Source: a virus. From it: 64,000 nt of DNA. Below the pieces are notes generated by a model, which was not told where the DNA came from, did no database searches, and was given only the letters and a program-made list of their open reading frames with translations. Both the position numbers and the translations under genes were made by a program. Location of the stretch: positions 47,531 to 111,530 of the IMG/VR virus record IMGVR_UViG_3300028044_000003; one strand, 5' to 3'. Below are positions 8,179-33,900 of this stretch, piece after piece (position 1 is the first letter of the stretch; each line of letters begins with the position of its first letter).

Positions 8179-8951
8179 TGAACGAAATTGTATTACCAAC
8201 AACTAAGATACCGGCTTCTATAAAGAGTCCTCGTAATCTTATTATTCTTTCTAAGCCTAAAACAGGTAAAACAACTCTCTTAGCAGAATTAGATAATTGT
8301 TTAATTCTTGATCTTGAAAAAGGTACAGACGGTATTGACGCTATGAAAATTCATGCGTCAAGTATTGAAGAAATTAAACAAATAGGTGAAGCTATTAAGA
8401 AAGCTAATAATCCTTATATGTATATCGCAGTCGATACTGTAACGGCTTTGGAAGAAATGTGTATACCTTATGCTGAAAAGCTTTACGCTAAGACAAGTAT
8501 GGGTAAAAACTGGTTTAAGAAAAAACCGGATGGAACCCTGGCTGAAGATAGTGGTAAAGCTACTTATAGTAGTATACTTAATTTACCCAATGGCGGTGGT
8601 TATTTTTATCTTAGAGAAGCTTTTACTAAGGTTGTAGAATTTATCAAAACATGGGCCCCAAGAACTATTCTTGTAGGACACGTTAAAGATACTTTGCTAG
8701 ACAAAGCTGGTGTAGAAGTAAGTTCTCTTGATTTAGATTTAACTGGTAAATTAAAAAGAATAAGTACCTCACAGTCGGACGCGATAGGTTATCTCTATCG
8801 TAAAAACGGAGTTAATAAAATAACTTTTAAAACTACTGATGAAATTGCATGTGGGGCTCGCCCTCCTCATTTAAGAAACGAAGAATTTGTTATCTCTGAA
8901 TTAAAGGATGACAAACTAGTTACTTATTGGGACAAAATTTATATTGATTAA
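8178..8951 (+). CDS. Sak4-like / AAA_24 P-loop ATPase (ssDNA annealing)
   Basis: SKPKTGKTT, LDLEKG, IAVDT and ILVGH motifs; lies upstream of an SSB-like gene. Confidence 0.85.
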   Translation: MNEIVLPTTKIPASIKSPRNLIILSKPKTGKTTLLAELDNCLILDLEKGTDGIDAMKIHASSIEEIKQIGEAIKKANNPYMYIAVDTVTALEEMCIPYAEKLYAKTSMGKNWFKKKPDGTLAEDSGKATYSSILNLPNGGGYFYLREAFTKVVEFIKTWAPRTILVGHVKDTLLDKAGVEVSSLDLDLTGKLKRISTSQSDAIGYLYRKNGVNKITFKTTDEIACGARPPHLRNEEFVISELKDDKLVTYWDKIYID

Positions 8952-12035: not shown

Positions 12036-12462
12036 GTTTATTTCTATCGAACAGTACTATACTTTATTAAACATGCTTAACTCTCCTGACAAAGAAAATG
12101 TTACTTTGGCTCTGGGTGTTATTGATAGATTCGATTATGCTAAAAACATGATCCCTATGACTATGTTATTTAAGTATAGTAAAGTACCAGTTAATGAATG
12201 GAAAGTTTTAACTAACGGATTTTATCAGTATGTAGTTGATAAACAATTAATTAGTAGAAATTTTTCTTATACGCTTACTAAAAAACTTTATGATTTAATA
12301 GGTATAAAAAATCTAGAACATGAAGAAATTTTAGTTAAAGCTGCATTATCGGGTATTTATTCACTTATTGATAGTTTTAAATTCGGTCAGTTAAAAAATA
12401 TTATTGTCGAATACGAAGACAAATCTATTTTATTAAATAAAGAATTTGACAACAATGGATAA
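12010..12462 (+). CDS. hypothetical protein with NM-x-NS-x-D-x-x-N-x-x-LA motif
   Basis: 150-aa ORF sharing a 34-aa motif with the 15236-16366 product. Confidence 0.8.
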   Translation: MENSSTKIEFISIEQYYTLLNMLNSPDKENVTLALGVIDRFDYAKNMIPMTMLFKYSKVPVNEWKVLTNGFYQYVVDKQLISRNFSYTLTKKLYDLIGIKNLEHEEILVKAALSGIYSLIDSFKFGQLKNIIVEYEDKSILLNKEFDNNG

Positions 12463-13654: not shown

Positions 13655-13655
13655 T

Positions 13656-15235: not shown

Positions 15236-16366
15236 ATGATTAAAAAAGAAAAGATTTTTTATATCCTTAATAAAAATGATAATACATTTTCTACTAGTAC
15301 ATTGAGTTATATTTCTGACCTGAGTTGCGATATGGTAGATAACTATTCTATTCAAAAAAATGATAGAATATTTTTCTTACCTGGCTGCACAGTACCTAGA
15401 TTTAAAATAAGAAATGTACTTAAAGATAATGATGCGTCAATATCTAGAACTTTAGATGGTTCTAATGTAGTAATTATGTCTAACGATACTTTTAAAAATC
15501 TATTTAAAACTATACTCTTACGTAGAGTATTTAAAGATAATTTTATACAATTTGTTTTAGCTAATCCTCAAAAGATTCAAAACGGTAATGAAATTATTGA
15601 TAGACTTAATCAATTTGAATTAGAAAATGGTGATACACGGTATGTTTATTTACATCGTAGTAATTATTATTCGTTTGTTAGACAAGGTATTTATAATAAA
15701 CCTCTTGAAGACGAGTGTCCTAGTTTTAATCAAATAAAAAACTTACACGAAAACGATGATGATTTTGATGAAAATCAACATCCGGATAATCCATGTGCTA
15801 GTGTAGATTTATTGTTTACTCAAGATGATTATGACATTGAAGTTTTAGCTGATAAGCTTTATTCTAATTCTCATAACTATTCTATAGTAGATCAAGATGA
15901 TCTTTTAAAAATTATTAATTGTAACAGTACTTTTATTGATGAAGCTAAGTATGAAGAGTTAAGAAACATGTGTAATAGTTCTGACAACTCAAACATGATT
16001 TTAGCTATGGAAATTATGAGTAATTGTGATTACGATGATTCTTATGTTTATTTAATATTACTGTTAGCTGAATATCATAAATCATTTTATACGGTTAAAG
16101 AACGAAATCACGTAAACTTTAAAAGTATGTTAGAGTATCTAGGTTTTAAACCTACGGATTTATCTCAACTGGGATTTAGTAGTTTTATAGAAGGTATGAA
16201 AACTAAAGGTAAGTTTACAAAAACTAATTGTGACTTATTATTAAATCGTTTAATTAAGCATTGTACCTCTTATAGCGGTAGGGACTATGTAGTCATTTCG
16301 AGCGATTATACAGATGTATTAATTTTACCAAAAGAAGAATGTTTAGACCCAGAATCTAATGACTAA
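15236..16366 (+). CDS. hypothetical protein with possible N-terminal BRCT-like domain and shared C-terminal motif
   Basis: IFFLPGCTVPRFKIR...ISRTLDGSNVVI resembles BRCT; motif shared with ORF 12010. Confidence 0.6.
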   Translation: MIKKEKIFYILNKNDNTFSTSTLSYISDLSCDMVDNYSIQKNDRIFFLPGCTVPRFKIRNVLKDNDASISRTLDGSNVVIMSNDTFKNLFKTILLRRVFKDNFIQFVLANPQKIQNGNEIIDRLNQFELENGDTRYVYLHRSNYYSFVRQGIYNKPLEDECPSFNQIKNLHENDDDFDENQHPDNPCASVDLLFTQDDYDIEVLADKLYSNSHNYSIVDQDDLLKIINCNSTFIDEAKYEELRNMCNSSDNSNMILAMEIMSNCDYDDSYVYLILLLAEYHKSFYTVKERNHVNFKSMLEYLGFKPTDLSQLGFSSFIEGMKTKGKFTKTNCDLLLNRLIKHCTSYSGRDYVVISSDYTDVLILPKEECLDPESND

Positions 16367-17396
16367 TCAAATCGATGTTAACGTTCTTGAAAATGAGTTT
16401 AAGAACACCCCTTTATTTCTTAGTTATTCTTCTCTTAGCAAACTTCACTATTCTCCTAAACTTTATTACAAACATTATGTACTAAAAGAAAAAGAAGAAG
16501 ATGAAGAGCGTTATACGGAAGGAAAGCTCATACACTCATTACTCCTGGATAACGGGAGTTTTGATGAAAAGTTTTTACTATCTCCGGGCACTTTACCTGG
16601 TGATAATAATAAACTGATAATTGATAATATTTATAAAATACACTTGGAAGTTAATGATGGTAGAACTTTGTTGTCTGATTACTTTAATGAGATTCTTGTT
16701 TTACTATTATCAATGAATTTACACCAATCTCTTGTAGACGATAAAAAACCAGTTAACGGTGTATCACGTACAGGTGATCAAAAACGACTTGAAAAAATAC
16801 TTACTACACAGAATGAAGAGTACTTTGAACACTTAAAAGTTAAAAAAGATAGACACATAATTGATGCCGAAACTTTAGATAGATGCGCTAAAATTGTAGA
16901 TATACTTAAGACCGAATCAAGAACTAAGGATTTATTAAAGTTGGATAATTATGATGATAATATTCAAGTGTTTAATGAGAAAGAAATAAAAATATCTCAA
17001 GAAGGATTACCATTTGGTTTTAGAGGGTTCTTAGATAATTATACTGTTGATTATGGTAAAAAGATGGTTATTGTTAACGATCTCAAAACAACTAGTAAAT
17101 CAATAGTTTATTTTGTAGAAACGATTGAAATCTATAACTACTGGATTCAGGCCGCGATATATAAAAAGCTTATTCAACACGAGTTAAAAGATATTCTTAC
17201 TAAAGAATGGACAATTTCTTTTAATTTTATCGTTGTAGATAAATTCGAACAAGTATATTCTTTTCCTGTTTCGGACGAAACTATGACTCTCTGGGAGGAG
17301 AGATTAGACGATATTATTAAAAAAGCTTCGTGGCACATAGAAAATATGTATTTTAAATTACCATACGACTATGCCCATGACCTTGTAATTCTTTAA
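16359..17396 (+). CDS. PD-(D/E)XK exonuclease (RecE/ExoVIII-like)
   Basis: LSYSSL, G.LIH..LL, NE, RGFLD, VNDLKTT, Y.IQAAIY. Confidence 0.88.
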   Translation: MTNQIDVNVLENEFKNTPLFLSYSSLSKLHYSPKLYYKHYVLKEKEEDEERYTEGKLIHSLLLDNGSFDEKFLLSPGTLPGDNNKLIIDNIYKIHLEVNDGRTLLSDYFNEILVLLLSMNLHQSLVDDKKPVNGVSRTGDQKRLEKILTTQNEEYFEHLKVKKDRHIIDAETLDRCAKIVDILKTESRTKDLLKLDNYDDNIQVFNEKEIKISQEGLPFGFRGFLDNYTVDYGKKMVIVNDLKTTSKSIVYFVETIEIYNYWIQAAIYKKLIQHELKDILTKEWTISFNFIVVDKFEQVYSFPVSDETMTLWEERLDDIIKKASWHIENMYFKLPYDYAHDLVIL

Positions 17397-21227: not shown

Positions 21228-21625
21228 TAAAATTATTTCTAGATGATGAAAGAGTTCCGTTAGATTGTTACTCTTATATGCAAAAGCGAGATTCTGAATT
21301 ATATCATCATTATAAAGAAAATGATTGGATTATACTAAGAAATCACGATCAGTTTATTAACTGGATAACTAAAAACGGATTACCAGATTTAATATCTTTT
21401 GATCACGATTTAATTCATGAGCACTATAGTCCGTTGTGTCATATACCGAAGCAGTATAACAAGCTTTATATGACTTTCAAACAGAAAACCGGCTTACATT
21501 CAGCTCGTTGGTTATTGATATATTGTTCCAAGAATAATCTTAAAATTCCAAGATACATGGTACACACCATGAATCCGACCGGTCACGATAATATCCATTT
21601 AATGTTAAACAAAGTACTAGATTAA
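21224..21625 (+). CDS. cyclic-phosphate-processing receiver-like domain protein
   Basis: LFLDDER.P, ISFDHDL, KTG and VHTMNP.G motifs. Confidence 0.75.
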   Translation: MIKLFLDDERVPLDCYSYMQKRDSELYHHYKENDWIILRNHDQFINWITKNGLPDLISFDHDLIHEHYSPLCHIPKQYNKLYMTFKQKTGLHSARWLLIYCSKNNLKIPRYMVHTMNPTGHDNIHLMLNKVLD

Positions 21626-21673: not shown

Positions 21674-24600
21674 TTAACCGCCTGCGCTACGATTCTTTAT
21701 AGAGATTTTTTGTTTGATTTTTTCTATAGGAGAAACGTTAGAACCATCTATACCTATACTTTTAGCTAATGTAGTTATAAATTTAGAACCACCTTCTTGC
21801 TGCCATTCGTAAGGACCACTATCTCTCTTGTAATAAGCTCTTTCGTTATTCATTAACGTATGATAACCAAGAGCTCCCATTTTAGAATAAGATTCTATTG
21901 TTGGACCAAAAGCTAATGATTGAAAATCTAAAAGTTTAGTATAATCGTCTAATCCAAACCCTGGTAGAGGTATAAATGTTTCGTTTTCAGATCTAACGTT
22001 CATGGCCAGGAGTAAAGCGTGATTCTCAGCCCACCCCATAAGTCTGAAAGGATGTTCAGGATCATCAGCTATAAATGGTAAAGGCAAATCACCACTTTTT
22101 TCTCTTAGTTTTTCATATTTTTCATCATCATCTTCATCCCAACCAAATAATGGTAATAATAATGATTGTATAAATATCAGACCCATTATTTCTAACGGCA
22201 TTCTTAACATATTAAATCTTTCTTCCTGGTTCATTATACCCCATTGTTCGCTTGTATTTTTTGATAACCTATAAAGATTTCTTAGAGTACTGATATAAAA
22301 TCCCATTTTTAATTCATTAAGACCCGGGTTATATCTTGGTCTTATATTTCCGGATAAAGGATCTCCAGCAAATGCAAATCTTTCTACAAACATTGTAGTA
22401 AAAAACTTCTTTAGGTAAGATATAAATCTAAAGAATAAAAATCCTTGAGCTAACGGTTGGTTCATGTTAGCGTAATTACCTTCTAAAGATTGCTGAACAA
22501 TATTAAACTTATTAAGCATGTCTTTAAACTTAGCACCAGTAGCTATAGTAAGTTCAGTACCTGGTTCTACATCATTAAAATTTTCTAAACCTAATCTTTT
22601 TTTCAATTCGTCTATAGGAATGTTGTATCTAGTAGAAATAGAATCCATCGTATCACCAGTTACAAATAAATGTGTTGTTTTTCTAGGCCCATAATCAGGA
22701 TCTATACCTTCTTTAATAGTTAAAACGCCATCACGTATTTCCCAGGCATCCATATACGCTATAGGTTTGTCATATTGATAAACCGTTTGTTTGTACATCA
22801 TGGCCCCAAATAAAGATGTTTCAGATTGACCCTGTAACCACTCTCTAAAGTTATACAACCATGACATACCTAATACATCAGATGGTAAAGATCTTGAAGC
22901 AGCTCTTGCAAAACTTTCTCTCGGATCTTTCATACTAACCTGGAAAAGTTCTGTTAATTGTACATTTAAAGTTTTAGCTCCTATTTGATAAATTTGAGGA
23001 CCCATACCTTCAGAAGCAGAACCAAAACTTTTTTCACTCATTACTTTAAATGCCCATGCTTCACCTTTAGCTATAGATTTAGGATCTATATATTTACCTC
23101 CAGACATTAATAACATCTTCTGATACTTAGAACCCAAGTAATCTTTTAAAGCGGCTGGAATATTTAAAGCAAACATTGCCATCGAAGCTCTACCAAAAAT
23201 AAATTTAGAGAATGTTTGTATTGGTTTACTATTTTTACCAAATCCTAATAGTCTTTCATCATAAAACTCTCGTTTCATTAGAGTTTCGTAAATATTACTT
23301 CTAACATTAGAATCTCCTTTAACAAACTCGATAGCGTTATTAAGAAAATTCTTTTTATCAAGTTTTTCTAACTCTTTTGGAGTGTTTGTTTTTAATACCT
23401 GGTCTAAAGCTTTGGCTATAGGATGTATCTCAATTAACTTTTCTTGTTTAATCAAAGATGATGCGTAAGCATACATGCTAGTTATAAAATCGGTAGATAC
23501 ATCATCTATCGGAATATTATAGAGACCTTGAACAGGAATAGTATCTGGTTCAATCCCTTCAGAAGTTACTCTTACTAAATCATAATCTAAATCAGGATTT
23601 AAAGTTTCTAAACCATCATCTTTAGCTTTTTGATAAAACTGTCTAATCCTTCTAATGATGTATTCGAATATAGGAAACTTTTTACCTAATGTTTTACTAA
23701 TACCCCTTTGTCTATCTTCTTTAGAAGTTATAATTTTTTCGTACAAAGAAGATTCAAAACGAGGAAAATCGTAATATAATCTAGATCTTACCGGTTTACC
23801 TTCTTGGTTTTTTAAATGAAACTCTTTTACTTTTTCTAGAAGTTTGAATAACTTACCGTCTCTGGAATCGGGACTGGCGTTTTTAAGTTCGTAGTATCTT
23901 TCATTACGAAACGGAGAATCTGGTAATTCTTTAGGTAACCATTCTTTTGTATTAGTAACAGTTTTTCCTACAATCTTTTCAGTTCTAAGTTTAACTACAT
24001 TACCGTTTTCATCAGTGTATTCTTTCTTAACTACTTTACGAATGTATTTATAATTAGGTATTCTATTAATACTTACTACATCTCCATTACTATAAGTAAC
24101 TTCTCTTTTTTTATAATACTCATCACCCACAGGAGTTTTAACGGTCCATATATTTAACCTTTTCCAAACTTCTATTTCATTATCACGATCTTTATCATAA
24201 TAAACTTCTTGATAGTGGTTTTTTTCAAACCACGCTTTAAACTCAGGACTAGCTTTAAAAAGCTCTTTTAGTACTTCGTTGTCTAAACCCAAAATATTTT
24301 CATAAAGTCTATCAACATTACTTATAGTTATTTCATTAACGTCCTGACCAAAATTTTTTAACATAAAATCGTCAGGTAATCCTTCAATATTTTTAATCTT
24401 GTCGTTTAATATATCAAGATAATATTCAGTTGGTTCTTTAGAACTCATATCTGATATCTCCTGGACTAACAGATTATAACGTTCTAAATCTTTATCATTT
24501 ATACCGGCTTTTCTTTTTCTAGCTTTAGCGGTTGCGTAAAGAGATGATATCAACTGCTGTATTCCAGGTATTCCCCGATCTAATGAACGATATAATCCTC

Positions 24601-27600
24601 TTAATTGAGCACTTTCTTTTTTAGTAAAACCGTTAACGTTTAGTATGTCTTGTCTAAGAGAGTTTATTTGTTCTTGTATATCAGCTAAAGTATCAATTTG
24701 TTCTTCAGACATTATAGTACCATCAGGAGTATTGTTATCATCCTTACTAATATTAACCATTGATATTTGTTGCTCAAGTAGTTTTGATATTTTTTCCATA
24801 GCCTCTCGTTGTTTATCACCTTGAGGCATTCTATCTTTTATAGCGTTTAACTGTTGAATCTTTTCTCTAAGAACATTATAATAAATTACTTTACCATCCG
24901 CATCTACTTTTAATCTTTGATAAGTATTTTCTTTTAACCACTCATCTTCTCTTCTTCGTATTTCTTCAGCCTGGGTTACCGGATCTAATAGCTCTACAGT
25001 TATCAATCTGTCTTTAAAAGCGTTAAACTCATTCTCAAAAACACCAATTCTCTCCCTTTCTTCATAAAAGTTTCTAGTAAGCTTTCTATGTTCGATTAAT
25101 ATATCAGTTATTTTTCTATCAAACTCGTTTTTAAAATTACCATTACGATCATAGTAACTATACATTTCTTTATATCTGATACGAAGCGCTCTTAGGTTTT
25201 CTGCTACAAGAGCTTCGTCATCAAGTGCTAAGTCAGGGTCAGTTTGGGCGTTAAGATCATTAAACCAATTATCTCTTAATTCTCTGGCAGCAGCACCTTC
25301 CGCGGAGTTTTTAAATATATCATCCTTAGCATAAAACACATCAGTATAAGGTTGGTGAAACCACTTTCTTAAATATTCTAGATACTCTGTCTTTTTTTGA
25401 TTTAGTTCTTTTTCAATTTCAGAATCACGAGTTCTATCATATTCTTCTTTTAATTGTCTTATTTCTAACTTTTTTTGAGAAATAGTATAATCAACATCTT
25501 TAAACTTATCTATAAAAGCCCATACTTCTTTAGGTTTAATTTCACCATCTTCTTCAAAACCTCTTTTATCTTTAAAACCAATTTCCCTACCCAACTTACC
25601 CTGTTGTCTTTGAGTATATCCAAGAGCATCTAAAAGAGGCTTTAATACTTCAGTTTGATTATAGTAAGTATCAAAACTTTTTACATTAACTTCTATAAGG
25701 GCATCCTTAAGAAACTTAGCAAAACCTCCAATAACTGGATCACTCTGATACATATATCCTTCCAACCATCCGTTAAAATAATTTGAATCACCGAGGTTAC
25801 CTTTTAATGTTTCTAGTATTTTTTCTTTGGTGAGAATAACACCTTCCGTATACATTTTCCTTTTTAAACGTTCTAACTGAGCTTTATCTTTTATATTTAA
25901 ACTACGCGCAGAACTTAAACGATCGTAAGTTTCTTTTTCACTAATAGTTAAACCGTAATATTCTTTATGATAAGCTTCGATTTGAGATTGAGGAGCTCCG
26001 TTTAATTGTAAAGTCCTGATAATTTCTGTATAGTATTTATCATTTCTTTCAGCCATATCTTCCCACTGTTCCCAAAGAACTTGACCCACACCTTTTAAGT
26101 AACCGGTTTCATTATCACCCTGTACTTCTTTACGGGCGTTTTCAAGGTTTTCATCAATATTATTTACAAAAGAATAAATAGGATCATCTGTTTTTAATTT
26201 CAAGTCATTATTAAAAACATTCATAGTATTCTTAGTAAAGTTCGACCAGTAGTTTATGATGTTTTCATAGTATTTTAACTTTTTAATATAATCTAAATTC
26301 TGCTTTTTAGTAAGATCTGATAAGTCTGAGTTTATAACTTTAATATGTTCTCTAAGTTTGGAAACCATGTTTTCTACACGGTTCAGAGTAACTACAAATC
26401 GATTAGCCCTGTCTTTAGTAAGCTCTAAATCTTTTTCCAGTTCTAATTTTAACTTATTAAGATTCTGTGTAAGATCGTATAAATCACCTCTCTGATACTC
26501 ATCTTTTAAAGCTTCAATCAACTCTTTGTCTTTCAAAGGATTCATAGCTCTGATAGTACCCCTGGCTTTATCGTACATGTCTTTTACTATTTCGAACACC
26601 GGTGCCGCGTTATCATTAGTAACATCCATGATACTCTTAATTAACTCAGCATTGTTATTCTGATAAGCAACAATATCACCTTGAGTTATTTTTGTAGAAT
26701 CTAGTTCAAACTGCTCATCATCTAGTAATATTTCGGCCAGGTCATATAGTGTAGAGTTTTCATTAATTCTACTTACCGGTTTGTTACCGAAAAGTTTGTT
26801 CAAGAAAGTTCTAAGACCTGTGAAAAATCTTTGTATTAGTGTAGGTAGTATGTTATCCGGTTTAATACCCTGAGCTTTTTTACTAGCTGATAATTGTATT
26901 GCTTTTACTAATACTTCTTCTTTTACAATTCCTGAGTTGTCTTGGACTCCTGAATATTCATCCAGGGTTTGTTGTAGTATCACCTGTCCTTCCGGCGTGG
27001 CTATAAACTTCTCGTATAAATCATTCATTAAACGAGGGTTTTCTACCATAAGAGCTCTTACAAAAGGGTGAGCAAACTCGTGGAACTGTGTTTCAAAGTC
27101 AATATTGTTTCCGACAAAGTATACTTTACCTCCCAAGAAGAAAGCTTTTTGACCTTTCCAAGGATTTTTTGTACCGGTGGTTAGTTCAAAAGCTTTGTCT
27201 GAAGTAATTATTTGAAAAGGTACTCTTAACTTATTTGATAATTTTTCAGCGATTTGAAATACGATACTAAGAGAACGGTCTTCTTCTGACGCATTTGGTT
27301 CTATTTCCTGGATCGAATTTTCTCTAATAAATTCTTCTCTTAATTGATCATAAACATCTTCAGAAGTTATTGTATCACTATCAACTTTATTATCTATAAA
27401 TGTATTTTTATTACTAAATGTAAAATGTCTAAACCCTTTAATATTAGCAAAACTACCATCACTTTTTCTATTAAATGGAATATAATTAGCAAAGTCTCGA
27501 ATATCTTTAGCCCTACCCATTTTTATTTTAGATTCGAAAATAGGTTCCCAATCTTGAAACCCTTTTTCGTTTTTATCTAATTCTAAATCAGATACAAAAA

Positions 27601-30600
27601 ATAAATCAATAAGATATCCATCAATACTCCCAGTTATTGTTACATCGTTTTTTTTTAATCCTTTAAAACTATTTGTTATTTTAAATGAAGGATATTCTTT
27701 TTTTATAGAGTTTAATAAAGGATGTTTTTTATAGTTTTTTGCAAGTTCTTTTTGAAATTTTTCCATCAAAAATATCTTACCTGTTTCTGAAGCCCCTTCA
27801 AATTGAGATTTTATGTCTTTATATAACTTGTTAAAATAATCACCTTGTTTATCTAAAGTCACCGTAAAATCTAAGTCGTGTAAATCTTCAGTTATTTCTC
27901 TATAAAGAGTACCTTGTTTTCTTAAACTCAAACTTCCTGTAAGTAATAAACCTAATTTTTGAAATTTTGATATTATTTCTTTGGCTTTTTCATCTTTTTC
28001 AATAGTATTGTTATAATTAGTTATTTGTTGTTCTGTATCTAAAATCGTTCCAAACTTATCAAAAGTATTATTTAACACATCGTTTGCAATATCAGATAAT
28101 AAATTTTGTAGTTCGTCATTAGTTAATTTAGTATTTAGAAATAATTTTTCTAAAAACTGTTTTACTTTAGATAAATAATATTTAATTTGTTTTTCTAACT
28201 TACTATTACCATCTATTCTCCAGTAATCGGCTTTTCGATTTTGATAACTATCTCTAGGATTTTCAAAATTATTTTTGATTGCGTCAGCTATAAAATCTAT
28301 AACTATTAATTCTTTTATAGTATAATCATTTAACTGAGGACTTCTTTTTTTATAATCTTCAAAAATTTGTTGATAGTTATTAATATTTTCAATACTATAA
28401 ACTAAATCTGTTCTAATCTTATTTTTTTTACCTAAAAAACTGTAAGCAACATAAGCCGTTTCTTTTAATAATCCTTCGTCTTTAAAATTATTTTTTATTC
28501 GAATAGTTTTATATAATAGATCTGTTACTGCTAAAGGATTAAATTCGTGTAATAATTCGTTTTTAAATTCTGTTGTAAAGTTTAAACTATTAAGGAAATC
28601 AATTAATTTAGACGATAATAAATCTTCAAAATTTATTTGTTCTTCTACTCCTGGTTTAACGTTAGTAAAAGATTGAGTAACAAACTCTCTAAATCCTTCT
28701 ATGTCTTGTTTAGAACCTAATATGTGAATTTGTTCAGGTTCAAATATAAGACCTATATCACCTGGAGTTATAATAGAATCATATCCGTTCTGTATAAATT
28801 TATCTTTATATTTTTGCTCTAAGGAATCGTACTGTAAGCTATCATCTTCAATATAAGGATTTTTTAAATTTAACAACAATCTTTTTATTTTATCTCCAAA
28901 TATACCACTCGACTTATAATAACTAAAATATATACCCGGTGTTTCTATTGCAAAATTTAAATCGAATTTTTCAAAATCCGCTTTACCTTCATGATAAACA
29001 ATATCTTTTACTTTGCTATCAGAAAATATAGTGTCTAGATATTGAGAGTATAGTTGCTGAGCTTGTTGCTTTTGTTGTGGGGTTATTTCTTTAGTGAAAT
29101 CATAACCTTCATCATTAGTAGTAAACCCTTTTGATTTTAAAAATGTTTTTAAATCATTTAATAATTCATCTCTTAATTTATCTCTATTTTCTAATGCTTT
29201 GTCTCCAATATCTTCTATGGAATGTGTTTCTGTGTAAAATGGTCTTATTAATGTAAATTTAACTGCTCCTAAAGAAATTGCTTTATTTATTTTAGGTATA
29301 AATAAATCTAACAATTCATTTATTTTATCTGCTTCAAAATCATAAATTTCTGGCTTTAAAGCTACTTGAGCATTTTTAAAATCTTTATCATCATATTCTG
29401 GAATTCTTTCATCATTAGTAATGATTGCTTTAGATTTAACTACGGTATTAAAACCTAAAGCTTCATATACAGCATTAGCTAATTCAGGATTAGAATCAAA
29501 TAGTTCTTCTACTCCTGGTTTAATTTGTCCTAATGAATAATATAAATAATTAGGGTTTGAAAAATAATCATTAAATGAAGTTTTAAAATCAATAAGGTCT
29601 CTAATATCTTTATTTCTACCTATATCCATCTTAGCTTCAAAAGTATCTTGCCATCTCATGTCTCCAAATGTATTTTTATTAGATGGAGGATTGATATTTA
29701 TAAAAAAGTCAACAGGCATACCTTTGATTATTAAAGTATGAGTTGTTTTTTCACCTTTACTAAATACTTGAGCTTGATTTGTTTTTGGATTTATTTTATA
29801 GGTTAAATCTGGAAAAGTAGATTTTACTAAATCTAACCAGTTATCTTGTAATTCTTTTGGTACTTGCCAATCTAAGTCATGCAAGTTATCATTAGATTCT
29901 CTATATACAGTTCCTTCATTTGAAAGAGCTGGAGAACCTGTAAACATAAAACCTAAAGAATTTAATTTATGATATATTTTATTTATAGTAGAATTATTTT
30001 CTAACACTTCTTTTAAAGATACAACAGTTTCTCCTTTTCTAGCTCTACTAGAATTATTAACTATTTTAGATGTATTATTAAATAATATATCATCTACAAT
30101 TTCATTTATTACAGCATCAAAAGGTCTAATGTTAACTTTATTAACACCTTTAGTTTCAATACCTCTTTGCTTTAAAAATCTATCAACAGCTTTGTAATAA
30201 TCTGATTTCCATATTTTATTAAATAAAGCTAGTATACCATTAATAATAGTTTCTAAAGTTGTTAGCTTTTTATCTTGCTTTGTTTTTTTAGTTCTATCTT
30301 TATTTTCTACTATTCTTTCAGCTAAAAGTTTACTAAGTATTTCAACTTTTAATTTTCTTTCATTGTTTTTATAGATAGGATCATTTTTATATAAATCATA
30401 ATACTGTTGGTATTTTTCCCAACTAGCTATATTTTCTAATGCTCTTCTAATTAATGGAGATGCTTCAGCGTGTTTGCTAGCACCCATAAACTCAATTGCA
30501 AAAGTAGCAACCTCTTCAGCATAATCTAAAGTGTTATATTTGTTAGAATCAAGAAATACAGCTTTGTGTAATATATCAGATACTGCAACAGCATTACTAT

Positions 30601-30955
30601 TTAATCCTTTTTCTTGTAATCTTTTTTGTAAATTATTTACAACTATAGTATCTACATTAATAGATGTTAAAAAATCTTTTAATTTATTTTCAAGGTTGTT
30701 AGCTAATTCAGGATTAGAATCAAATAGTTCTTGAACACTCGGTTTTACTCCTGGTTTTATTTCTTGTACTACTCGTTCACCAGGTTTATTAAAACCCATA
30801 TTTCTGTCAGAAATCTTTTTAATAACTTCTTCAGGAGTACGTATAACACCATCGTTCTCTAACCAATCCCTCATTGCTTCAAACTTACCGATCAAAGGAT
30901 TATTTTCTAAAGCTTTCCACTCTGGAGAATTAAAATTAGGACAAGAATTTTTCAT
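21674..30955 (-). CDS. giant virion-ejected polyvalent protein (2 nucleotidyltransferases, ART-like domain, zincin peptidase, LysM)
   Basis: 3093 aa, directly downstream of vRNAP; GS..DLD motifs at ~29870-29938 and ~27869-27938; VYH..GIYFS..NLKNP..GYDSII; HEFAH 27068-27082; LysM 22545-22676. Confidence 0.85.
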   Translation of the reverse strand: MKNSCPNFNSPEWKALENNPLIGKFEAMRDWLENDGVIRTPEEVIKKISDRNMGFNKPGERVVQEIKPGVKPSVQELFDSNPELANNLENKLKDFLTSINVDTIVVNNLQKRLQEKGLNSNAVAVSDILHKAVFLDSNKYNTLDYAEEVATFAIEFMGASKHAEASPLIRRALENIASWEKYQQYYDLYKNDPIYKNNERKLKVEILSKLLAERIVENKDRTKKTKQDKKLTTLETIINGILALFNKIWKSDYYKAVDRFLKQRGIETKGVNKVNIRPFDAVINEIVDDILFNNTSKIVNNSSRARKGETVVSLKEVLENNSTINKIYHKLNSLGFMFTGSPALSNEGTVYRESNDNLHDLDWQVPKELQDNWLDLVKSTFPDLTYKINPKTNQAQVFSKGEKTTHTLIIKGMPVDFFININPPSNKNTFGDMRWQDTFEAKMDIGRNKDIRDLIDFKTSFNDYFSNPNYLYYSLGQIKPGVEELFDSNPELANAVYEALGFNTVVKSKAIITNDERIPEYDDKDFKNAQVALKPEIYDFEADKINELLDLFIPKINKAISLGAVKFTLIRPFYTETHSIEDIGDKALENRDKLRDELLNDLKTFLKSKGFTTNDEGYDFTKEITPQQKQQAQQLYSQYLDTIFSDSKVKDIVYHEGKADFEKFDLNFAIETPGIYFSYYKSSGIFGDKIKRLLLNLKNPYIEDDSLQYDSLEQKYKDKFIQNGYDSIITPGDIGLIFEPEQIHILGSKQDIEGFREFVTQSFTNVKPGVEEQINFEDLLSSKLIDFLNSLNFTTEFKNELLHEFNPLAVTDLLYKTIRIKNNFKDEGLLKETAYVAYSFLGKKNKIRTDLVYSIENINNYQQIFEDYKKRSPQLNDYTIKELIVIDFIADAIKNNFENPRDSYQNRKADYWRIDGNSKLEKQIKYYLSKVKQFLEKLFLNTKLTNDELQNLLSDIANDVLNNTFDKFGTILDTEQQITNYNNTIEKDEKAKEIISKFQKLGLLLTGSLSLRKQGTLYREITEDLHDLDFTVTLDKQGDYFNKLYKDIKSQFEGASETGKIFLMEKFQKELAKNYKKHPLLNSIKKEYPSFKITNSFKGLKKNDVTITGSIDGYLIDLFFVSDLELDKNEKGFQDWEPIFESKIKMGRAKDIRDFANYIPFNRKSDGSFANIKGFRHFTFSNKNTFIDNKVDSDTITSEDVYDQLREEFIRENSIQEIEPNASEEDRSLSIVFQIAEKLSNKLRVPFQIITSDKAFELTTGTKNPWKGQKAFFLGGKVYFVGNNIDFETQFHEFAHPFVRALMVENPRLMNDLYEKFIATPEGQVILQQTLDEYSGVQDNSGIVKEEVLVKAIQLSASKKAQGIKPDNILPTLIQRFFTGLRTFLNKLFGNKPVSRINENSTLYDLAEILLDDEQFELDSTKITQGDIVAYQNNNAELIKSIMDVTNDNAAPVFEIVKDMYDKARGTIRAMNPLKDKELIEALKDEYQRGDLYDLTQNLNKLKLELEKDLELTKDRANRFVVTLNRVENMVSKLREHIKVINSDLSDLTKKQNLDYIKKLKYYENIINYWSNFTKNTMNVFNNDLKLKTDDPIYSFVNNIDENLENARKEVQGDNETGYLKGVGQVLWEQWEDMAERNDKYYTEIIRTLQLNGAPQSQIEAYHKEYYGLTISEKETYDRLSSARSLNIKDKAQLERLKRKMYTEGVILTKEKILETLKGNLGDSNYFNGWLEGYMYQSDPVIGGFAKFLKDALIEVNVKSFDTYYNQTEVLKPLLDALGYTQRQQGKLGREIGFKDKRGFEEDGEIKPKEVWAFIDKFKDVDYTISQKKLEIRQLKEEYDRTRDSEIEKELNQKKTEYLEYLRKWFHQPYTDVFYAKDDIFKNSAEGAAARELRDNWFNDLNAQTDPDLALDDEALVAENLRALRIRYKEMYSYYDRNGNFKNEFDRKITDILIEHRKLTRNFYEERERIGVFENEFNAFKDRLITVELLDPVTQAEEIRRREDEWLKENTYQRLKVDADGKVIYYNVLREKIQQLNAIKDRMPQGDKQREAMEKISKLLEQQISMVNISKDDNNTPDGTIMSEEQIDTLADIQEQINSLRQDILNVNGFTKKESAQLRGLYRSLDRGIPGIQQLISSLYATAKARKRKAGINDKDLERYNLLVQEISDMSSKEPTEYYLDILNDKIKNIEGLPDDFMLKNFGQDVNEITISNVDRLYENILGLDNEVLKELFKASPEFKAWFEKNHYQEVYYDKDRDNEIEVWKRLNIWTVKTPVGDEYYKKREVTYSNGDVVSINRIPNYKYIRKVVKKEYTDENGNVVKLRTEKIVGKTVTNTKEWLPKELPDSPFRNERYYELKNASPDSRDGKLFKLLEKVKEFHLKNQEGKPVRSRLYYDFPRFESSLYEKIITSKEDRQRGISKTLGKKFPIFEYIIRRIRQFYQKAKDDGLETLNPDLDYDLVRVTSEGIEPDTIPVQGLYNIPIDDVSTDFITSMYAYASSLIKQEKLIEIHPIAKALDQVLKTNTPKELEKLDKKNFLNNAIEFVKGDSNVRSNIYETLMKREFYDERLLGFGKNSKPIQTFSKFIFGRASMAMFALNIPAALKDYLGSKYQKMLLMSGGKYIDPKSIAKGEAWAFKVMSEKSFGSASEGMGPQIYQIGAKTLNVQLTELFQVSMKDPRESFARAASRSLPSDVLGMSWLYNFREWLQGQSETSLFGAMMYKQTVYQYDKPIAYMDAWEIRDGVLTIKEGIDPDYGPRKTTHLFVTGDTMDSISTRYNIPIDELKKRLGLENFNDVEPGTELTIATGAKFKDMLNKFNIVQQSLEGNYANMNQPLAQGFLFFRFISYLKKFFTTMFVERFAFAGDPLSGNIRPRYNPGLNELKMGFYISTLRNLYRLSKNTSEQWGIMNQEERFNMLRMPLEIMGLIFIQSLLLPLFGWDEDDDEKYEKLREKSGDLPLPFIADDPEHPFRLMGWAENHALLLAMNVRSENETFIPLPGFGLDDYTKLLDFQSLAFGPTIESYSKMGALGYHTLMNNERAYYKRDSGPYEWQQEGGSKFITTLAKSIGIDGSNVSPIEKIKQKISIKNRSAGG
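28639..28659. repeat. 21-nt direct repeat (copy of 29503-29523), encodes KPGVEE
   Basis: GTTCTTCTACTCCTGGTTTAA identical at both sites. Confidence 0.9.
29475..29523. repeat. central composite copy of the cassette-boundary repeat (IKPGVEELFDSNPELAN)
   Basis: 29475-29508 is identical to 30699-30732; 29503-29523 is identical to 28639-28659. Confidence 0.92.
30699..30732. repeat. 34-nt exact direct repeat (ELFDSNPELAN)
   Basis: TTAGCTAATTCAGGATTAGAATCAAATAGTTCTT, identical to 29475-29508. Confidence 0.92.
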
Positions 30956-30964
30956 TGAATTTGA

Positions 30965-33900
30965 TTATTTAAAACAAGTTACGAAATTACTAATAACATC
31001 TTGATCTGATACAGGTTGTTGTGAAGTTACTATGTCTTTAAGTTTTTGAGATGAAGTTTCTATTATAAAACCAGGGTTATAATATCCAAAGTTTTTTAAT
31101 AACTCGTTAGATAAATAAAGAAAACCTCCCCTATAATCATCTTTATTCAAACTTTGACCATAACCACTAGAACTTAACATTAAGCTTTTATCTTGGATAT
31201 CTTCTCTAAGCTGTGTAATAAAATTATCTACATCAGTTTTTAGTTTAGGATTAGCAACCAAAATACCTTTATCATTTCTAACATCTTTAAGATTTGTTTT
31301 TAATATATCAAATTTTATTACGTTTGGTTTATTAGGTATTTTTTCTGTTACACCCACACCGTCTACTAAAAATAGAGCTCCTGGAAACATTGAGTATACA
31401 TTTTCCATCGCATTATTATCCCGGTACTCAAATATGTTTTCTTTTAGAGGTTTAACAGTGTCAAAAAAAATACTTTGATCAGTACTTACATCAGTTAATA
31501 GTTCTTTTAAAGATTGAATTTTACTTATTGGTGAAACATTAACAGGGGTTACTTTTGTAGTTACACTAGGTTGAGTAAATTGTATAGATTTAAGTTCCCC
31601 TCTAACTTCCATAAGAAGTTTGGAAAATCTACCTTTATCTTGTTCTATACCATTATATTTATGTGTAAGTTCAGCATTTCCTGTAGCTAATAACTTAGCA
31701 AGAGCATCTGGATTTTGTTGGAAAGAATCTTTTAATAATGCTTTCATAATTGTTGGAGACATGTTATCCCAAACTTTCTGATCTAATCCTTTAAACTCTT
31801 TTCCTAATTCTCTAAGTCTTTTACCATCTTTAGTATCTTTTATAACACTACCTACAGCTCGATTATTCTCATTCTTAGGAGAGAACTCAGTTTTATAATA
31901 TTGAAACGCTTGTTCTACAGAATCAAAATTTATACCTAAGTGTATAAAAGGTCTAATAGCAAAGTTACTTAACTCAGCATTCTCTCCTGTACCAGCGTAA
32001 ATATTAATCTTAATTCCTGCTGCTACTAAAGGATTTGATTCTAGAATCTTGCTTGTCATCTTCATTCCTGTCTTTAAGTCTACATTACTAATGTAAACCT
32101 CACCTGTTTCTTTGTCTACTAAATTATACAAGTCATTATCTTGTAATATCCACTTAGAAGACTGAGGAGCTTTTTCTCTTTTACCTGTAGATTTATTATA
32201 AAACTCTTTAAATCTTGTATTAGTAGTAAAAAATTCTTTAGGCATCTTACCATCAGATTTTTCTACATATTGATTGTATGCATCTATATCTGATTGAGAA
32301 ATAATTTTTACACTTTCACTTTCATCTTCTTCTTGAGGTTTTACTTCAGTACCCCAATCATATTTATTAATAAGATAATCTAAAGCTGTAGCGTGAGTAG
32401 CATAATTCTTTTCTTCATAATAAAGAATAGGACTTTTTATTATTTTACTTGATTTAATATCGTTAATAATAGCTTGTCTATATTCTTTTGTAGCATTAGT
32501 ATTACCAAAATTATTACCAGTAATCATCCACTCAATAAACTTTTTAGTAGATTTTATACCTTGTTCTTTTCTTGTACCTGTTTCATCTGCAAAATCAAAA
32601 GGATTACCTACAGTGTTTCCATCTTTATAATTTTGTAAAAATGTTTTTTTCTTGTTTCCTCTGTATGCAATTAGCATAGGTTTCTTACCAGGAAACTTAT
32701 AATCAAACATAGATTTTGCTTCTGGAACAATATCATTCCAAAAGTTTTTACCTGTATATTCTGTGTTTTCTTCTAAATCTTTAGGTAAGATAACATTTTC
32801 TGATTGTATTAAATTGTCTTTGTTTATGTCAGAATAAATTTCTTCTGCTGTTAAAATAACTTGCGGTTGAGTAGTAAGTTTAGCTGGTGTTGCGGGTATA
32901 CCTGGTTCTAAATCCGCAGCTCTTCTAAATGTAAGGGTAATAGTATAATTAGTAATAACTCTACCATCTGAAAGTTTAATTGGCGGATAAGGATTCTTCT
33001 TTATATTTCCTAATGGCGTTGTGTGAGAGAGAGCAAATCTACCTTTACCATCCATACCAAATGTATAAATAGTACCATCTTTAGTAGCAATTTCATTAGT
33101 AGGTTTTCTTCCTTGGTAATCTTCTTTATAGGCACCTTGGAAAGTTATCTTACCTTTATTATCATCCCATATACCAAGGCCAGAATTATTACCTATTGTA
33201 TAAACAACAACAGGATATCCTTTAGCAGACTTAGCTTCTGTAGTATCTCTATGCGGAGCTATACTTTGGTTATCTAAATATATGTTTCCCAATATAGAAT
33301 CATAATCAGACATATCTAGACCTAAAGCGTTTTGTATTTTATCAATTAACGGTTGTAAATCTGATATAGGAGGTAAAGGATTACCGTTTTGATCTAATTC
33401 GTGATAGTCATAAATATATTTTGACTTATCTACTGTTAATCCAGCTTTTTTTAGAGCCGCTATTTGTTGTTTAGTTTTTTCAACACCAGCAAAAGAATTA
33501 ATTAATAATGGTTTTGCTTTAAGATTTACTCTTGACCACATACGACCAAAAGAAAACTGCCAGTTAGCATTAACTCCAACATTTTCTTTATAAGCTTGTC
33601 TCTGAATTTGAGGAGCTATAAGATTTATAATTTCTTGAGTATCAACTTTTGTAGGATTTGTATCAACTTTAACAACACCGTAATCTGGAGAAACTACTTT
33701 AATTTCAGAAATAAAATCTGATGTTGCCGATATTTCAGATATTTTTTCTAAACCTTTACCAGCTAAAACTTTATTGATAGCTTCTAACTCTTTAACTTGA
33801 TATTTTCTTAACTCTTCAAGAGTTTTAAATCTTTTTAATAATTGTACTTCGTTAGTTATTGTAAAAAATAAATCTACTACCGGTAAATGGTGTAAAGAAC

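What the first reader, a model, noticed from the sequence alone, without database searches (positions are those of the whole stretch)
27400..30760. Repeat-bounded, in-frame effector cassette array in a virion-ejected protein (candidate cassette-exchange system)
Seen: the N-terminal third of the 3093-aa gene is a series of modules whose borders carry exact DNA repeats. A 34-nt repeat lies at 30699-30732 and 29475-29508, and a 21-nt repeat at 29503-29523 and 28639-28659; together they encode the linker KPGVEELFDSNPELAN. A further linker-like peptide, EITPQQKQQAQQLYSQYLDTIF (~29024-29090), splits the middle module. Module order is degenerate peptidase + NTase-1, an unknown ~120-aa domain, an ART-like domain, then degenerate peptidase + NTase-2, before the core begins. 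The repeats are identical even at synonymous positions while the enclosed domains are unrelated or highly diverged. Known: phage polyvalent proteins carry variable conflict domains. Inference: the linkers act as recombination landing pads that let phages gain, lose and swap injected enzymes in frame, like an integron inside a gene. The encoded Sak4-like, RecE-like and NinB-like proteins could drive this.
Basis: partly seen in the sequence, partly recalled or inferred. Interest (0 to 1): 0.9.

Follow-up and report, generated by a model that had tools for sequence, protein, structure and literature searches.

The report
In-frame junction motifs swapping phage effectors
Short coding "joint" sequences, nearly identical at the DNA level in many unrelated uncultured phages, mark the places where enzyme modules have been gained, lost and replaced in frame inside a giant phage virion-block protein, which suggests that phages shuffle their probably injected enzymes by recombining at these joints.

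Summary
The 34-nt and 21-nt exact repeats are present. Simulated 64-kb sequences give repeats of at most 19 nt.

The linker KPGVxELFDSNPELAN (J1) is not private to this contig:
- It occurs in 87 non-redundant contexts in viral and metagenome contigs.
- It occurs in at least 752 protein clusters.
- It has no match in 185,579 prokaryotic genomes.

Its synonymous codons are conserved far beyond codon bias. Leu CTA is used at 70% against 10% expected, and Gly GGG at 77% against 8%. DNA identity falls from 0.93 to background (about 0.32) within about 60 nt on either side. No two distinct IMG/VR contexts share both flanks.

Two further joints behave similarly: J2 (ITPQQKQQALQLYSQYLDTIF...) and, more weakly, J3 (..HILGSKQDIEGFKEF).

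The strongest evidence comes from sister strains about 94% identical in the core. They carry three N-terminal architectures, and similarity stays high only at J1, J2, J3 and the third KPGVEE copy.

The cassette-exchange reading is therefore largely supported as homologous recombination at short in-frame junctions. Three parts are not supported or only partly:
- An integron-like, site-specific mechanism has no support.
- The "degenerate peptidase" is unsupported.
- NTase-2 looks vertically inherited.

ART and NTase folds are supported. Earlier first-stage notes flagged similar flanks on another genome. Novelty: new variant of a known kind.

The parts
21674..30955 (-). 3093-aa gene (P0001). It lies in a minus-strand block of very large genes, some of which match virion structural protein families.
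   Evidence: ORF. Neighbours 57216-62360 and 62454-63380 hit PHROG 'virion structural protein' families. Eleven independent assemblies give the same 3093-aa architecture.
30758..30955 (-). N-terminal leader, aa 1-66 (MKNSCPNF...). It is shared with sister alleles, distant orthologues and many small J1 proteins.
   Evidence: 92% identical to P0227. 42-58% identical to leaders in L030, L036, L067, L071 and L094. The consensus M.C.N...P.F appears at the N-termini of 87 small J1 proteins.
30698..30757 (-). J1 copy a (aa 67-86, KPGVKPSVQELFDSNPELAN). It contains the 34-nt repeat at 30699-30732.
29522..30697 (-). Module B (aa 87-478): a helical N-terminal half plus a Pol-beta-type nucleotidyltransferase-like half (G-S..D-x-D at 29870-29941). 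It is absent from sister allele P0227.
   Evidence: 27% identical to module E, E 3e-17. The motif is invariant in 11 homologues. Absent from P0227. GC 25%, CpG obs/exp 0.06.
29450..29521 (-). J1 copy b (aa 479-502, KPGVEELFDSNPELANAVYEALGF). It contains the 34-nt repeat at 29475-29508 and the 21-nt repeat at 29503-29523.
   Evidence: The AF2 model shows two short helices with pLDDT about 90. 87.5% nt identity over 80 nt to L042, L074 and L120.
29090..29449 (-). Variable slot X (aa 503-622), an unassigned domain.
   Evidence: No Pfam hit, low model confidence, and a singleton among 44 clusters of X segments. Replaced by an unrelated segment in P0227.
28991..29089 (-). J2 (aa 623-655, EITPQQKQQAQQLYSQYLDTIFSDSKVKDIVYH).
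   Evidence: 88% identical to P0227. Found in 20 loci with rare codons conserved: ACC 61% vs 7%, CTA 87% vs 13%, TAC 85% vs 22%, AGT 92% vs 28%.
28742..28990 (-). ADP-ribosyltransferase-like core (aa 656-738).
   Evidence: Pfam ART-PolyVal at 31.3 bits. Foldseek finds tankyrase/PARP. 34% identical to the sister allele but 70% aa and 77% nt identical to L042, L074 and L120.
28682..28741 (-). J3 (aa 739-758, EPEQIHILGSKQDIEGFREF): the end of the ART unit plus a conserved tail.
   Evidence: 17/20 identical to P0227. Found in 20 loci. Often directly fused to J2 when the ART is absent.
28640..28657 (-). J1 copy c, left half only (aa 767-772, KPGVEE). It lies inside the 21-nt repeat 28639-28659.
   Evidence: The same KPGVEEQI junction is present in P0227.
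27383..28639 (-). Module E (aa 773-1191): helical half plus NTase-like half (G-S..D-x-D at 27869-27940). It is probably an inherited part of the gene family.
   Evidence: 94% identical to P0227. Homologous modules sit next to the core in distant orthologues P0059, P0049, P0048, P0061, P0054 and P0060. Fold matches MenT1 at Z 6.4 and other nucleotidyltransferases.
21674..27382 (-). Conserved core (aa 1192-3093). It has an HEFAH zincin-type motif at 27068-27082 and a weak LysM match at 22544-22660.
   Evidence: 65 homologues with total lengths of 1760-3093 aa. HEFAH is conserved in the alignment. LysM E 8e-4, just below the Pfam cutoff.
8178..8951 (+). AAA_24 (Sak4-type) protein, a candidate single-strand annealing or recombination factor. 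Context only.
   Evidence: Pfam PF13479, E 5.7e-19.
16359..17396 (+). PD-(D/E)XK nuclease (DUF3799-like), a candidate recombination exonuclease. Context only.
   Evidence: Pfam PF12705 E 1.6e-6 and PF12684 E 2.8e-5.

Best explanation
The N-terminal third of this giant protein is a hypervariable array of enzyme modules. The gene lies in the virion structural block.

The modules are separated by a small set of in-frame junction sequences:
- J1: KPGVxELFDSNPELA(N)(QVYEALGF)
- J2: ITPQQKQQALQLYSQYLDTIFPDSKVKDIVYH
- J3: ..HILGSKQDIEGFKEF

These junctions are shared, nearly identical at the DNA level, by many otherwise unrelated uncultured phages.

Proposed mechanism: during co-infection, or between copies in one gene, homologous recombination occurs within these 35-100-nt islands of identity. 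Every junction is read in the same frame, so any crossover gives an intact fusion protein. Two crossovers replace the module in between. They can fall in two junctions, or in one junction and the conserved core. A crossover between two copies in one gene deletes or duplicates modules. Frequent exchange and gene conversion at the junctions keep them homogeneous, synonymous sites included, while the modules diverge.

Shown here: the junctions, their DNA-level conservation, the mosaic breakpoints, and module replacement between sister strains.

Inferred:
- that recombination at the junctions is the cause;
- that the phage's own Sak4-type and PD-(D/E)XK proteins carry it out;
- that the modules (an ART and two NTase-like domains) are delivered into the host.
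For: 1. The repeats are exact and far beyond chance.

2. Occurrence of J1. The codon-degenerate pattern for ELFDSNPELA finds 45 IMG/VR loci, 16 of them with the identical 34-mer. Multiplying the expected codon frequencies gives an expectation of roughly 0.3%. It finds 74 metagenome contigs and 0 of 185,579 prokaryotic species genomes.

3. Synonymous conservation. In 87 non-redundant contexts, codon use at J1 departs strongly from each locus's own usage:
- CTA 70% vs 10%
- GGG 77% vs 8%
- CCA 85% vs 34%
- TCT 92% vs 41%
J2 behaves likewise.

4. Sharp island of identity. Mean pairwise nt identity is 0.93 in the 30-nt core, about 0.6 in the adjoining 30 nt, and 0.31-0.39 beyond.

5. Mosaic boundary. 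There are 12 pairs with only upstream homology, 26 with only downstream homology, and none with both apart from identical contigs. Nucleotide profiles show breaks at the left edge (L001/L018) and at the right edge (L026/L028) of J1.

6. Sister alleles. The window, P0227 and P0003 share a core and module E at about 94% identity but have three architectures. Similarity peaks at J1, J2, J3 and KPGVEEQI and is low between them.

7. Cassette ancestry disagrees with core ancestry. The window's ART is 70% aa and 77% nt identical to that of L042/L074/L120 but only 34% identical to its sister's.

8. A 32%-identical orthologue (L030) has leader-J1-X'-J2-ART'-J3-core.

9. Spread. J1 sits in different host proteins, including homologues of the neighbouring 4289-aa protein (which other first-stage notes call the vRNAP). 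Only about 5 of 39 J1-bearing records have a core orthologue.

10. The slot between J1 and J2 holds 44 sequence clusters in 104 units.

11. Among 11 near-identical strains, 4 of 9 variable residues lie in the two J1 copies (P 6e-6). Three of these changes (aa 487, 495, 499) occur together in three variants, as a conversion tract would.

12. The array is compositionally distinct: GC 25.0% and GC3 11%, against 31.8% and 21% in the core.

13. Recombination genes are present.
Against: - No recombination event was observed directly.
- The peptide itself is strongly conserved and modelled as a confident helix-turn-helix. A protein-level role is therefore likely as well and could explain part of the conservation.
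- The one variable codon (x in KPGVxELF) sits in the middle of otherwise invariant DNA. That looks more like selection on individual sites than simple recent identity by descent.
- The P0003 deletion has its right break at no junction motif. It looks like a microhomology deletion.
- All 11 strain variants keep the 3093-aa architecture, so deletion between the 34-nt repeats is not frequent.
- Most distant orthologues have variable N-termini without J1, so variability does not depend on J1.
- The polymorphism hot spot at J1 could partly reflect assembler cross-talk between phages that share the motif.
Confidence: 0.6

Rival explanations
1. The junction motifs are conserved mainly for what the peptides do. 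Possible roles are helical caps that insulate neighbouring domains, sites where the embedded zincin or the head protease cuts the polyprotein, or signals for packaging into the capsid. Under this reading the mosaicism is ordinary domain shuffling, in which the motif travels with one of the modules. The DNA-level identity reflects recent spread within one gene pool of AT-rich phages.
For: - K, ELFD and NPELA are invariant in 40 sequences.
- J1 is modelled as two helices at pLDDT about 90, and J2 and J3 also as helices.
- A single hypervariable codon sits inside invariant DNA.
- An HEFAH motif follows the array. Zincin-mediated processing of polyvalent proteins has been proposed in the literature (PMC5512222).
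- J2 and J3 are contiguous with the ART fold and often fused to each other when the ART is missing.
Against: - Peptide function does not explain conservation of rare synonymous codons (CTA, GGG, ACC, TAC) in 87 contexts whose flanks are at background similarity.
- Breaks occur at both edges of J1, so it is not simply part of one module.
- The modules next to J1 are far more diverged than J1, which argues against recent transfer of whole units.
- Among near-identical strains J1 is a hot spot of amino-acid change, not a cold spot.
Confidence: 0.25
2. A dedicated, sequence-specific exchange system, the 'integron inside a gene'. In this reading J1, J2 and J3 are recognition sites for a specialised recombinase or nuclease that excises and inserts cassettes, possibly through circular intermediates.
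For: - DNA-level conservation of three distinct junction types across unrelated phages.
- J1 contains a 10-nt palindrome, ATTAGCTAAT.
- Circular intermediates between short repeats are known for PeSL cassettes in T4-type phages (PMC2839356).
Against: - No integrase or other site-specific recombinase appeared in the 26 window ORFs scanned.
- Break points fall at different positions within and beside J1, as in homologous exchange.
- No consistent hairpin: z-scores range from -2.6 to +0.6 with different folds.
- There are only two full J1 copies and no orphan cassettes in the 111.5-kb record.
Confidence: 0.07
3. Artefact. Metagenome assemblers join unrelated phage contigs at a shared ~75-nt sequence, so the mosaic pattern and the variable architectures would be chimeras.
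For: A motif shared in frame by co-occurring phages could produce undetectable in-frame chimeras. Polymorphism is concentrated in J1.
Against: - The window's architecture is reproduced in 11 assemblies from JGI and ENA on contigs of 78-113 kb.
- Identical junction contexts recur in different metagenomes: L004/L007/L014, L030/L045/L072, L017/L044, L035/L042.
- P0003 and P0227 each come from two sources.
- Exact shared stretches are mostly under 60 nt. From my own knowledge, that is shorter than the final k-mers of common assemblers.
Confidence: 0.03

Closest known systems
Polyvalent proteins of phages and conjugative elements (Iyer et al. 2017, PMC5512222)
   Same: One giant polypeptide strings together conflict-type enzyme domains: ART-PolyVal, nucleotidyltransferase-like domains and a zincin-type motif. 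It lies in the virion block of a phage. Domain content varies between relatives.
   Different: A text search of the paper found no use of the word 'linker' and no conserved junction sequence. It mentions possible recombinational cassettes in only one kinase-bearing system. The shared, DNA-conserved in-frame joints and the allele series described here are not part of that description.
PeSL-mediated modular shuffling in T4-type phages (Arbiol et al. 2010, PMC2839356)
   Same: Short conserved DNA cassettes flank variable segments. Close relatives differ by insertions, deletions and replacements at them. Recombination between copies is the proposed driver.
   Different: PeSLs are intergenic promoter/terminator units that flank whole genes within one phage group. 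Here the repeats are coding, in frame, inside one gene, and shared by phages with unrelated genomes. Mini-circles were shown for PeSLs and could not be tested here.
Polymorphic toxin loci (Rhs, CdiA): a conserved pre-toxin motif with swappable C-terminal toxin cassettes (my own knowledge; also referred to in PMC5512222)
   Same: A conserved coding motif demarcates constant from variable parts. It supplies homology for in-frame replacement of an enzymatic tip.
   Different: Those loci are bacterial. They have one variable tip per protein, paired with immunity genes and orphan cassettes nearby. Here there are several slots in tandem, no immunity genes and no orphan cassettes in the record.
T4 internal proteins with a conserved capsid-targeting leader, and T-even tail-fibre conserved motifs used as recombination points
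   Same: Conserved short coding segments sit next to hypervariable, host-directed protein parts. They have been proposed to promote exchange between phages.
   Different: Those involve separate small genes or receptor-binding tips within one phage family. No DNA-level conservation across unrelated phages is known to me for them.

Membership tests
Polyvalent protein (Iyer et al. 2017) | Two or more conflict-related domains in one polypeptide of a phage or conjugative element | tested here: met
   ART-PolyVal at the Pfam cutoff, with a PARP-like fold. Two Pol-beta-type NTase-like modules. An HEFAH motif. All lie in one 3093-aa ORF.
Polyvalent protein (Iyer et al. 2017) | Zincin-like metallopeptidase (MPTase) domain predicted to process the polyprotein | tested here: inconclusive
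   Only the HExxH motif and its conservation in orthologues were seen. Pfam gave no peptidase family above threshold; there was only a weak DUF4932 hit at E 0.019.
Polyvalent protein (Iyer et al. 2017) | Packaged in the virion and delivered to the host | not testable with these tools
   The gene lies in a block with PHROG 'virion structural protein' hits. There are no proteomic data.
Integron | Tyrosine-recombinase integrase with an attI site | tested here: inconclusive
   None was found in the 26 window ORFs scanned with Pfam. The remaining ORFs and the first 47.5 kb of the record were not scanned.
Integron | Cassettes bounded by attC sites that fold as imperfect hairpins | tested here: not met
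   The J1 and J2 strands give inconsistent folds, with z-scores from -2.6 to +0.6. The junctions are coding and in frame.
Polymorphic toxin system | Conserved coding motif that demarcates constant and variable parts | tested here: met
   J1 separates unrelated flanks in the 46 IMG/VR and window J1 sites compared. The DNA identity island holds in 87 non-redundant contexts.
Polymorphic toxin system | Orphan cassettes and immunity genes next to the main locus | tested here: not met
   Only the two intragenic full J1 copies exist in the 111.5-kb record. No small ORF follows the cassettes.
PeSL-type modular shuffling | Short conserved DNA units flank the segments that differ between close relatives | tested here: met
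   The window, P0227 and P0003 differ between J1, J2, J3 and KPGVEEQI.
PeSL-type modular shuffling | Units are intergenic promoter plus terminator stem-loops; mini-circles form between copies | tested here: not met
   The units are in-frame coding sequence.
Pol-beta superfamily nucleotidyltransferase (MenT/AbiEii-like) | G-[GS] x9-13 D-x-[DE] motif on the NTase fold | tested here: met
   The G-S..D-x-D motif is invariant in 11 sequences. Best structural matches are MenT1 at Z 6.4 (rmsd 3.5, 105 aligned) and TglT at Z 6.0, followed by many nucleotidyltransferases. The Z values are moderate and the model pLDDT is 59, so this supports the fold, not membership of a subfamily.
ART-PolyVal (PF18760) | Pfam gathering score and ART fold | tested here: met
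   31.3 bits against a cutoff of 31.2. Foldseek's top hits are all PARP/tankyrase catalytic domains, with weak E-values of 3e-3. The catalytic residues were not assessed.

The most novel reading that the evidence does not exclude
J1, J2 and J3 would form a widespread 'grammar' of in-frame splice points. Their DNA sequence itself would be under selection, or maintained by a dedicated activity, because it lets unrelated phages exchange ready-made effector domains. That would be a prokaryotic-virus counterpart of exon shuffling. The slot between J1 and J2 already holds 44 sequence clusters here and would be a rich source of unknown anti-defence or takeover domains.
Probability: 0.2. Interest if true: 0.9.

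Novelty: new variant of a known kind. Interest (0 to 1): 0.72.

Why it matters
Phages are known to carry variable multi-enzyme "polyvalent" proteins, but how the domain sets are reshuffled has been left open. This result points to a concrete, testable route: a few short coding joints, kept nearly identical in DNA across unrelated phages, at which modules are replaced in frame.

If it holds, three things follow:
- It explains the rapid turnover of what are probably injected counter-defence enzymes.
- It gives a simple sequence handle (J1, J2, J3) for mining metagenomes for new effector domains. There are at least 752 protein clusters with J1 and 44 clusters of the slot domain in this small sample.
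- It suggests natural in-frame docking points for engineering cargo into phage virion proteins.

Tried and rejected
Searches and tools that gave nothing:
- INPHARED phages: no nucleotide or protein match to the region.
- The search for related loci with the core (viral contigs) and with P0003 (metagenome contigs): no confirmed relative. DNA of the sister alleles was therefore not available.
- PHROGs on the whole protein: none.
- Pfam on the whole protein: only a weak LysM match.
- Module E against PDB sequences and the ESM Atlas: nothing usable.

Ideas tested and dropped:
- 'Degenerate peptidase'. Profile-profile comparison of the helical half of modules B and E with the HExxH region of the core put the EExxT/KETAY stretch over HEFxH. 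Probability was only 0.7% and E 0.087, so the idea is not supported.
- My own idea that NIKGFRHF (aa ~1172) is a degenerate J3 at the right end of the array. I dropped it because it is the conserved tail of the NTase module family.
- RNA structure as the reason for synonymous conservation. Folds differ between copies and the z-scores are inconsistent.
- Internal promoter or ribosome-binding readings of J1, considered from the sequence alone. I found no in-frame start codon after the AGGAG in KPGV.
- A simple linker-to-linker origin of the P0003 deletion. The right break lies at ..DN|DIDSN.., not at a junction motif.
Full report
**1. What is in the window**

The finding lies in the N-terminal third of a 3093-aa ORF, 21674-30955 on the minus strand. 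The window is part of a 111.5-kb IMG/VR virus record estimated at 93% complete.

The gene sits in a minus-strand block of very large genes:
- a 4289-aa neighbour that carries a NADAR domain;
- a 1714-aa and a 308-aa protein that match PHROG 'virion structural protein' families.

The plus-strand genes upstream include helicases, a primase-like protein and a dUTPase. They also include a Sak4-type AAA_24 protein (8178-8951) and a PD-(D/E)XK nuclease (16359-17396).

**2.

The 34-nt repeat (29475-29508 = 30699-30732) and the 21-nt repeat (28639-28659 = 29503-29523) are exact. The 34-mer is the longest exact direct repeat in the window, and simulated sequences reach only 16-19 nt.

The repeats encode KPGVKPSVQELFDSNPELAN (aa 67-86), KPGVEELFDSNPELANAVYEALGF (aa 479-502) and KPGVEE (aa 767-772). 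I call these J1a, J1b and J1c.

The modules they bound:
- Module B (aa 87-478) and module E (aa 773-1191) are homologous over their whole length at only 27% identity.
- Both carry a G-S..D-x-D motif that is invariant in 11 homologues.
- A model of E matches Pol-beta-fold nucleotidyltransferases best: MenT1 Z 6.4, TglT Z 6.0, ANT(2''), CCA-adding enzymes and Pol beta. The Z values are moderate and the model pLDDT is 59.
- The ART-like module reaches the Pfam ART-PolyVal cutoff (31.3 against 31.2 bits). Its model resembles PARP/tankyrase domains.
- The 'degenerate peptidase' label is not supported.
- The ~120-aa domain remains unassigned.

**3. The linker is a widespread, DNA-conserved motif**

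Occurrence:
- The exact 34-mer occurs in 16 IMG/VR contigs from different samples.
- A codon-degenerate pattern for ELFDSNPELA finds 45 IMG/VR loci and 74 metagenome contigs.
- The same pattern finds none of 185,579 prokaryotic species genomes.
- A profile of the motif finds 752 representatives of 50%-identity clusters at E <= 1e-3 (164 at 1e-10). These proteins range from 69 to 5057 aa, with the motif at any position. Eight of the best 150 have two copies.

Codon choice in 87 non-redundant contexts is far from each locus's own usage (first seen):

| Codon | Observed | Expected |
|---|---|---|
| Leu CTA | 70% | 10% |
| Gly GGG | 77% | 8% |
| Pro CCA | 85% | 34% |
| Ser TCT | 92% | 41% |

Mean pairwise DNA identity is 0.93 in the 30-nt core and about 0.6 in the adjoining 30 nt on each side. 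It is 0.31-0.39 beyond that. No Pfam family covers the motif.

**4. J1 is a mosaic boundary**

I compared the J1 sites of the IMG/VR loci and the window. Apart from identical contigs recovered from different samples, no pair has homology on both sides. Twelve pairs share only the upstream part and 26 share only the downstream part.

Nucleotide profiles show both kinds of break:
- L001 and L018 are unrelated until about 20 nt before ELF, then about 90% identical for more than 400 nt.
- L026 and L028 are 65-80% identical upstream and become unrelated right after ..EALGF.

**5. Two further junctions**

J2 (ITPQQKQQALQLYSQYLDTIFPDSKVKDIVYH) recurs in 20 loci with rare codons conserved: ACC 61% vs 7%, CTA 87% vs 13%, TAC 85% vs 22%, AGT 92% vs 28%. 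J3 (..EPEQIHILGSKQDIEGFKEF) ends the ART unit, and its codon bias is weaker.

The common unit is J1 - variable domain X - J2 - ART - J3, with two variants:
- J1 joined directly to the second half of J2 (56 of 244 sites).
- J2 joined directly to J3 with the ART missing (L010 and about 12 of 150 representatives).

The X slot holds 44 sequence clusters in 104 units, with a median length of 158 aa. Pfam families in 87 small J1 proteins are ART-PolyVal (25), P-loop kinases, GNAT, DUF3990 and PARP.

**6. Close relatives: the decisive comparison**

The core (aa ~1200-3093) has 65 homologues with total lengths of 1760-3093 aa, so the N-terminal extension is variable.

Alleles found:
- Eleven strain-level variants keep the 3093-aa architecture.
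- P0003 (1978 aa) and P0227 (2745 aa) belong to one 90% cluster. Both are about 94% identical to the window in the core.

Identity between the window and P0227, segment by segment:

| Segment | Identity |
|---|---|
| Leader | 92% |
| J1 | 100% |
| Between J1 and J2 | about 33%, with 378 gap columns; the window has B + J1b + X and P0227 has an unrelated ~170-aa X |
| J2 | 88% |
| ART core | 34% |
| J3 | 17 of 20 |
| KPGVEEQI | 8 of 9 |
| Module E | 94% |
| Core | 94% |

P0003 reads leader-KPGVQELF|DIDSNTITSED-core. The whole array, including E, is missing. The left break is inside J1 and the right break is at no junction motif.

Other comparisons point the same way:
- A 32%-identical orthologue (L030/L045/L072) has leader-J1-X'-J2-ART'-J3-core.
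- The window's ART is closer to one in L042/L074/L120 (70% aa, 77% nt over 360 nt) than to its sister's. Cassette ancestry and core ancestry therefore disagree.
- The array is more AT-rich than the core: GC 25.0% against 31.8%, and GC3 11% against 21%.

Module E has homologues next to the core in at least six distant orthologues that lack J1. It is probably an inherited part of the family rather than a swapped cassette.

**7. Signs of ongoing exchange**

Among the 11 near-identical strains only 9 of 3093 residues vary. Four of them lie in the two J1 copies (aa 81, 487, 495, 499; binomial P 6e-6). In three variants the changes at 487, 495 and 499 occur together, as expected of a short conversion tract.

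Assembler cross-talk between phages that share the motif could contribute to this signal. The perfect 34-nt identity seen in the window is found in only 2 of the 11 variants.

**8. Spread across phages and host proteins**

Only about 5 of 39 J1-bearing viral records contain a full orthologue of the core. Several complete records have none. J1 also sits at the N- or C-terminus of homologues of the neighbouring 4289-aa protein, and behind the HExxH region in some core orthologues. First-stage notes on another genome had flagged similar flanks around a ParB-like insert in a giant RNAP-like protein.

**9. Interpretation**

The data fit homologous recombination at short, in-frame islands of DNA identity, which keeps every product in frame. 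Repeated exchange and conversion would keep the junctions homogeneous while the modules diverge. The phage encodes plausible enzymes, but their role is an inference.

Three points weigh the other way:
- A peptide-level role (helical caps, cleavage or packaging signals) is likely as well. J1 is modelled as a confident two-helix element.
- One codon inside J1 is free to vary.
- RNA structure does not explain the synonymous conservation.

An integron-like, site-specific mechanism has no support, and artefact is unlikely because the junction contexts are reproduced in independent assemblies.

**10. Relation to what is known**

The protein fits the 'polyvalent protein' class (PMC5512222). That paper discusses zincin processing and, for one system, possible recombining cassettes, but a text search of it found no conserved linkers. 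My searches of the paper library found no description of these motifs.

The nearest mechanistic precedents are PeSL-mediated modular shuffling in T4-type phages (PMC2839356) and the conserved demarcation motifs of polymorphic toxins.

I rate this as a new variant of a known kind. The new elements are coding, in-frame junctions of three types, conserved in DNA across unrelated phages, with an allele series in sister strains.

Noticed in passing
window 21224-21625 (+): A 133-aa protein matches Pfam cREC_REC (cyclic-phosphate processing receiver domain) at E 2e-17. It lies directly downstream of the plus-strand replication block and converges on the giant gene.
   Followed up: no
window 12446-15203 (+): A DUF2201 putative metallopeptidase plus VWA-like protein (12446-13654) is followed by an AAA ATPase (13656-15203). 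This looks like a MoxR/VWA-type pair in a phage.
   Followed up: no
window 30965-43834 (-), aa 3466-4059 of the 4289-aa protein: NADAR domain (E 1e-10, above the Pfam cutoff) and a weak 2OG-Fe(II) oxygenase match (below the cutoff) near the C-terminus. Pfam found no RNA polymerase family, so the 'vRNAP' label in other notes was not tested here. This protein has no J1 copy.
   Followed up: partly
window 30758-30955 (-), aa 1-66: The N-terminal leader (M.C.N...P.W..) recurs at the start of many small and large J1 proteins and of distant orthologues without J1 (P0048, P0049). It has a very weak NUMOD3-like match (E 0.59). Its role is unknown; targeting or DNA binding are possibilities.
   Followed up: partly
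P0181, P0154, P0089 (core orthologues): In these proteins J1 lies after the HExxH region (about aa 323) rather than before it. This suggests a second insertion point in the same gene family.
   Followed up: no
L010:about 5640-5700 (-), and about 12 of 150 cluster representatives: J2 is fused directly to J3 (..LYSQYLDTGKQDIEGFKEF..), a precise absence of the ART domain that recurs in unrelated proteins.
   Followed up: partly
window 29090-30697 (-): CpG is almost absent from module B (1 CpG, obs/exp 0.06) and from slot X (obs/exp 0.18). It is normal in module E (1.13) and in the core (0.83).
   Followed up: partly
window 30699-30732 and 29475-29508: Nine of the 11 near-identical strain variants have Ser instead of Asn at aa 81, and six have Glu instead of Asp at aa 487. 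The two copies are therefore identical in peptide, as in the window, in only 2 of the 11 (P0001 and P0218).
   Followed up: yes
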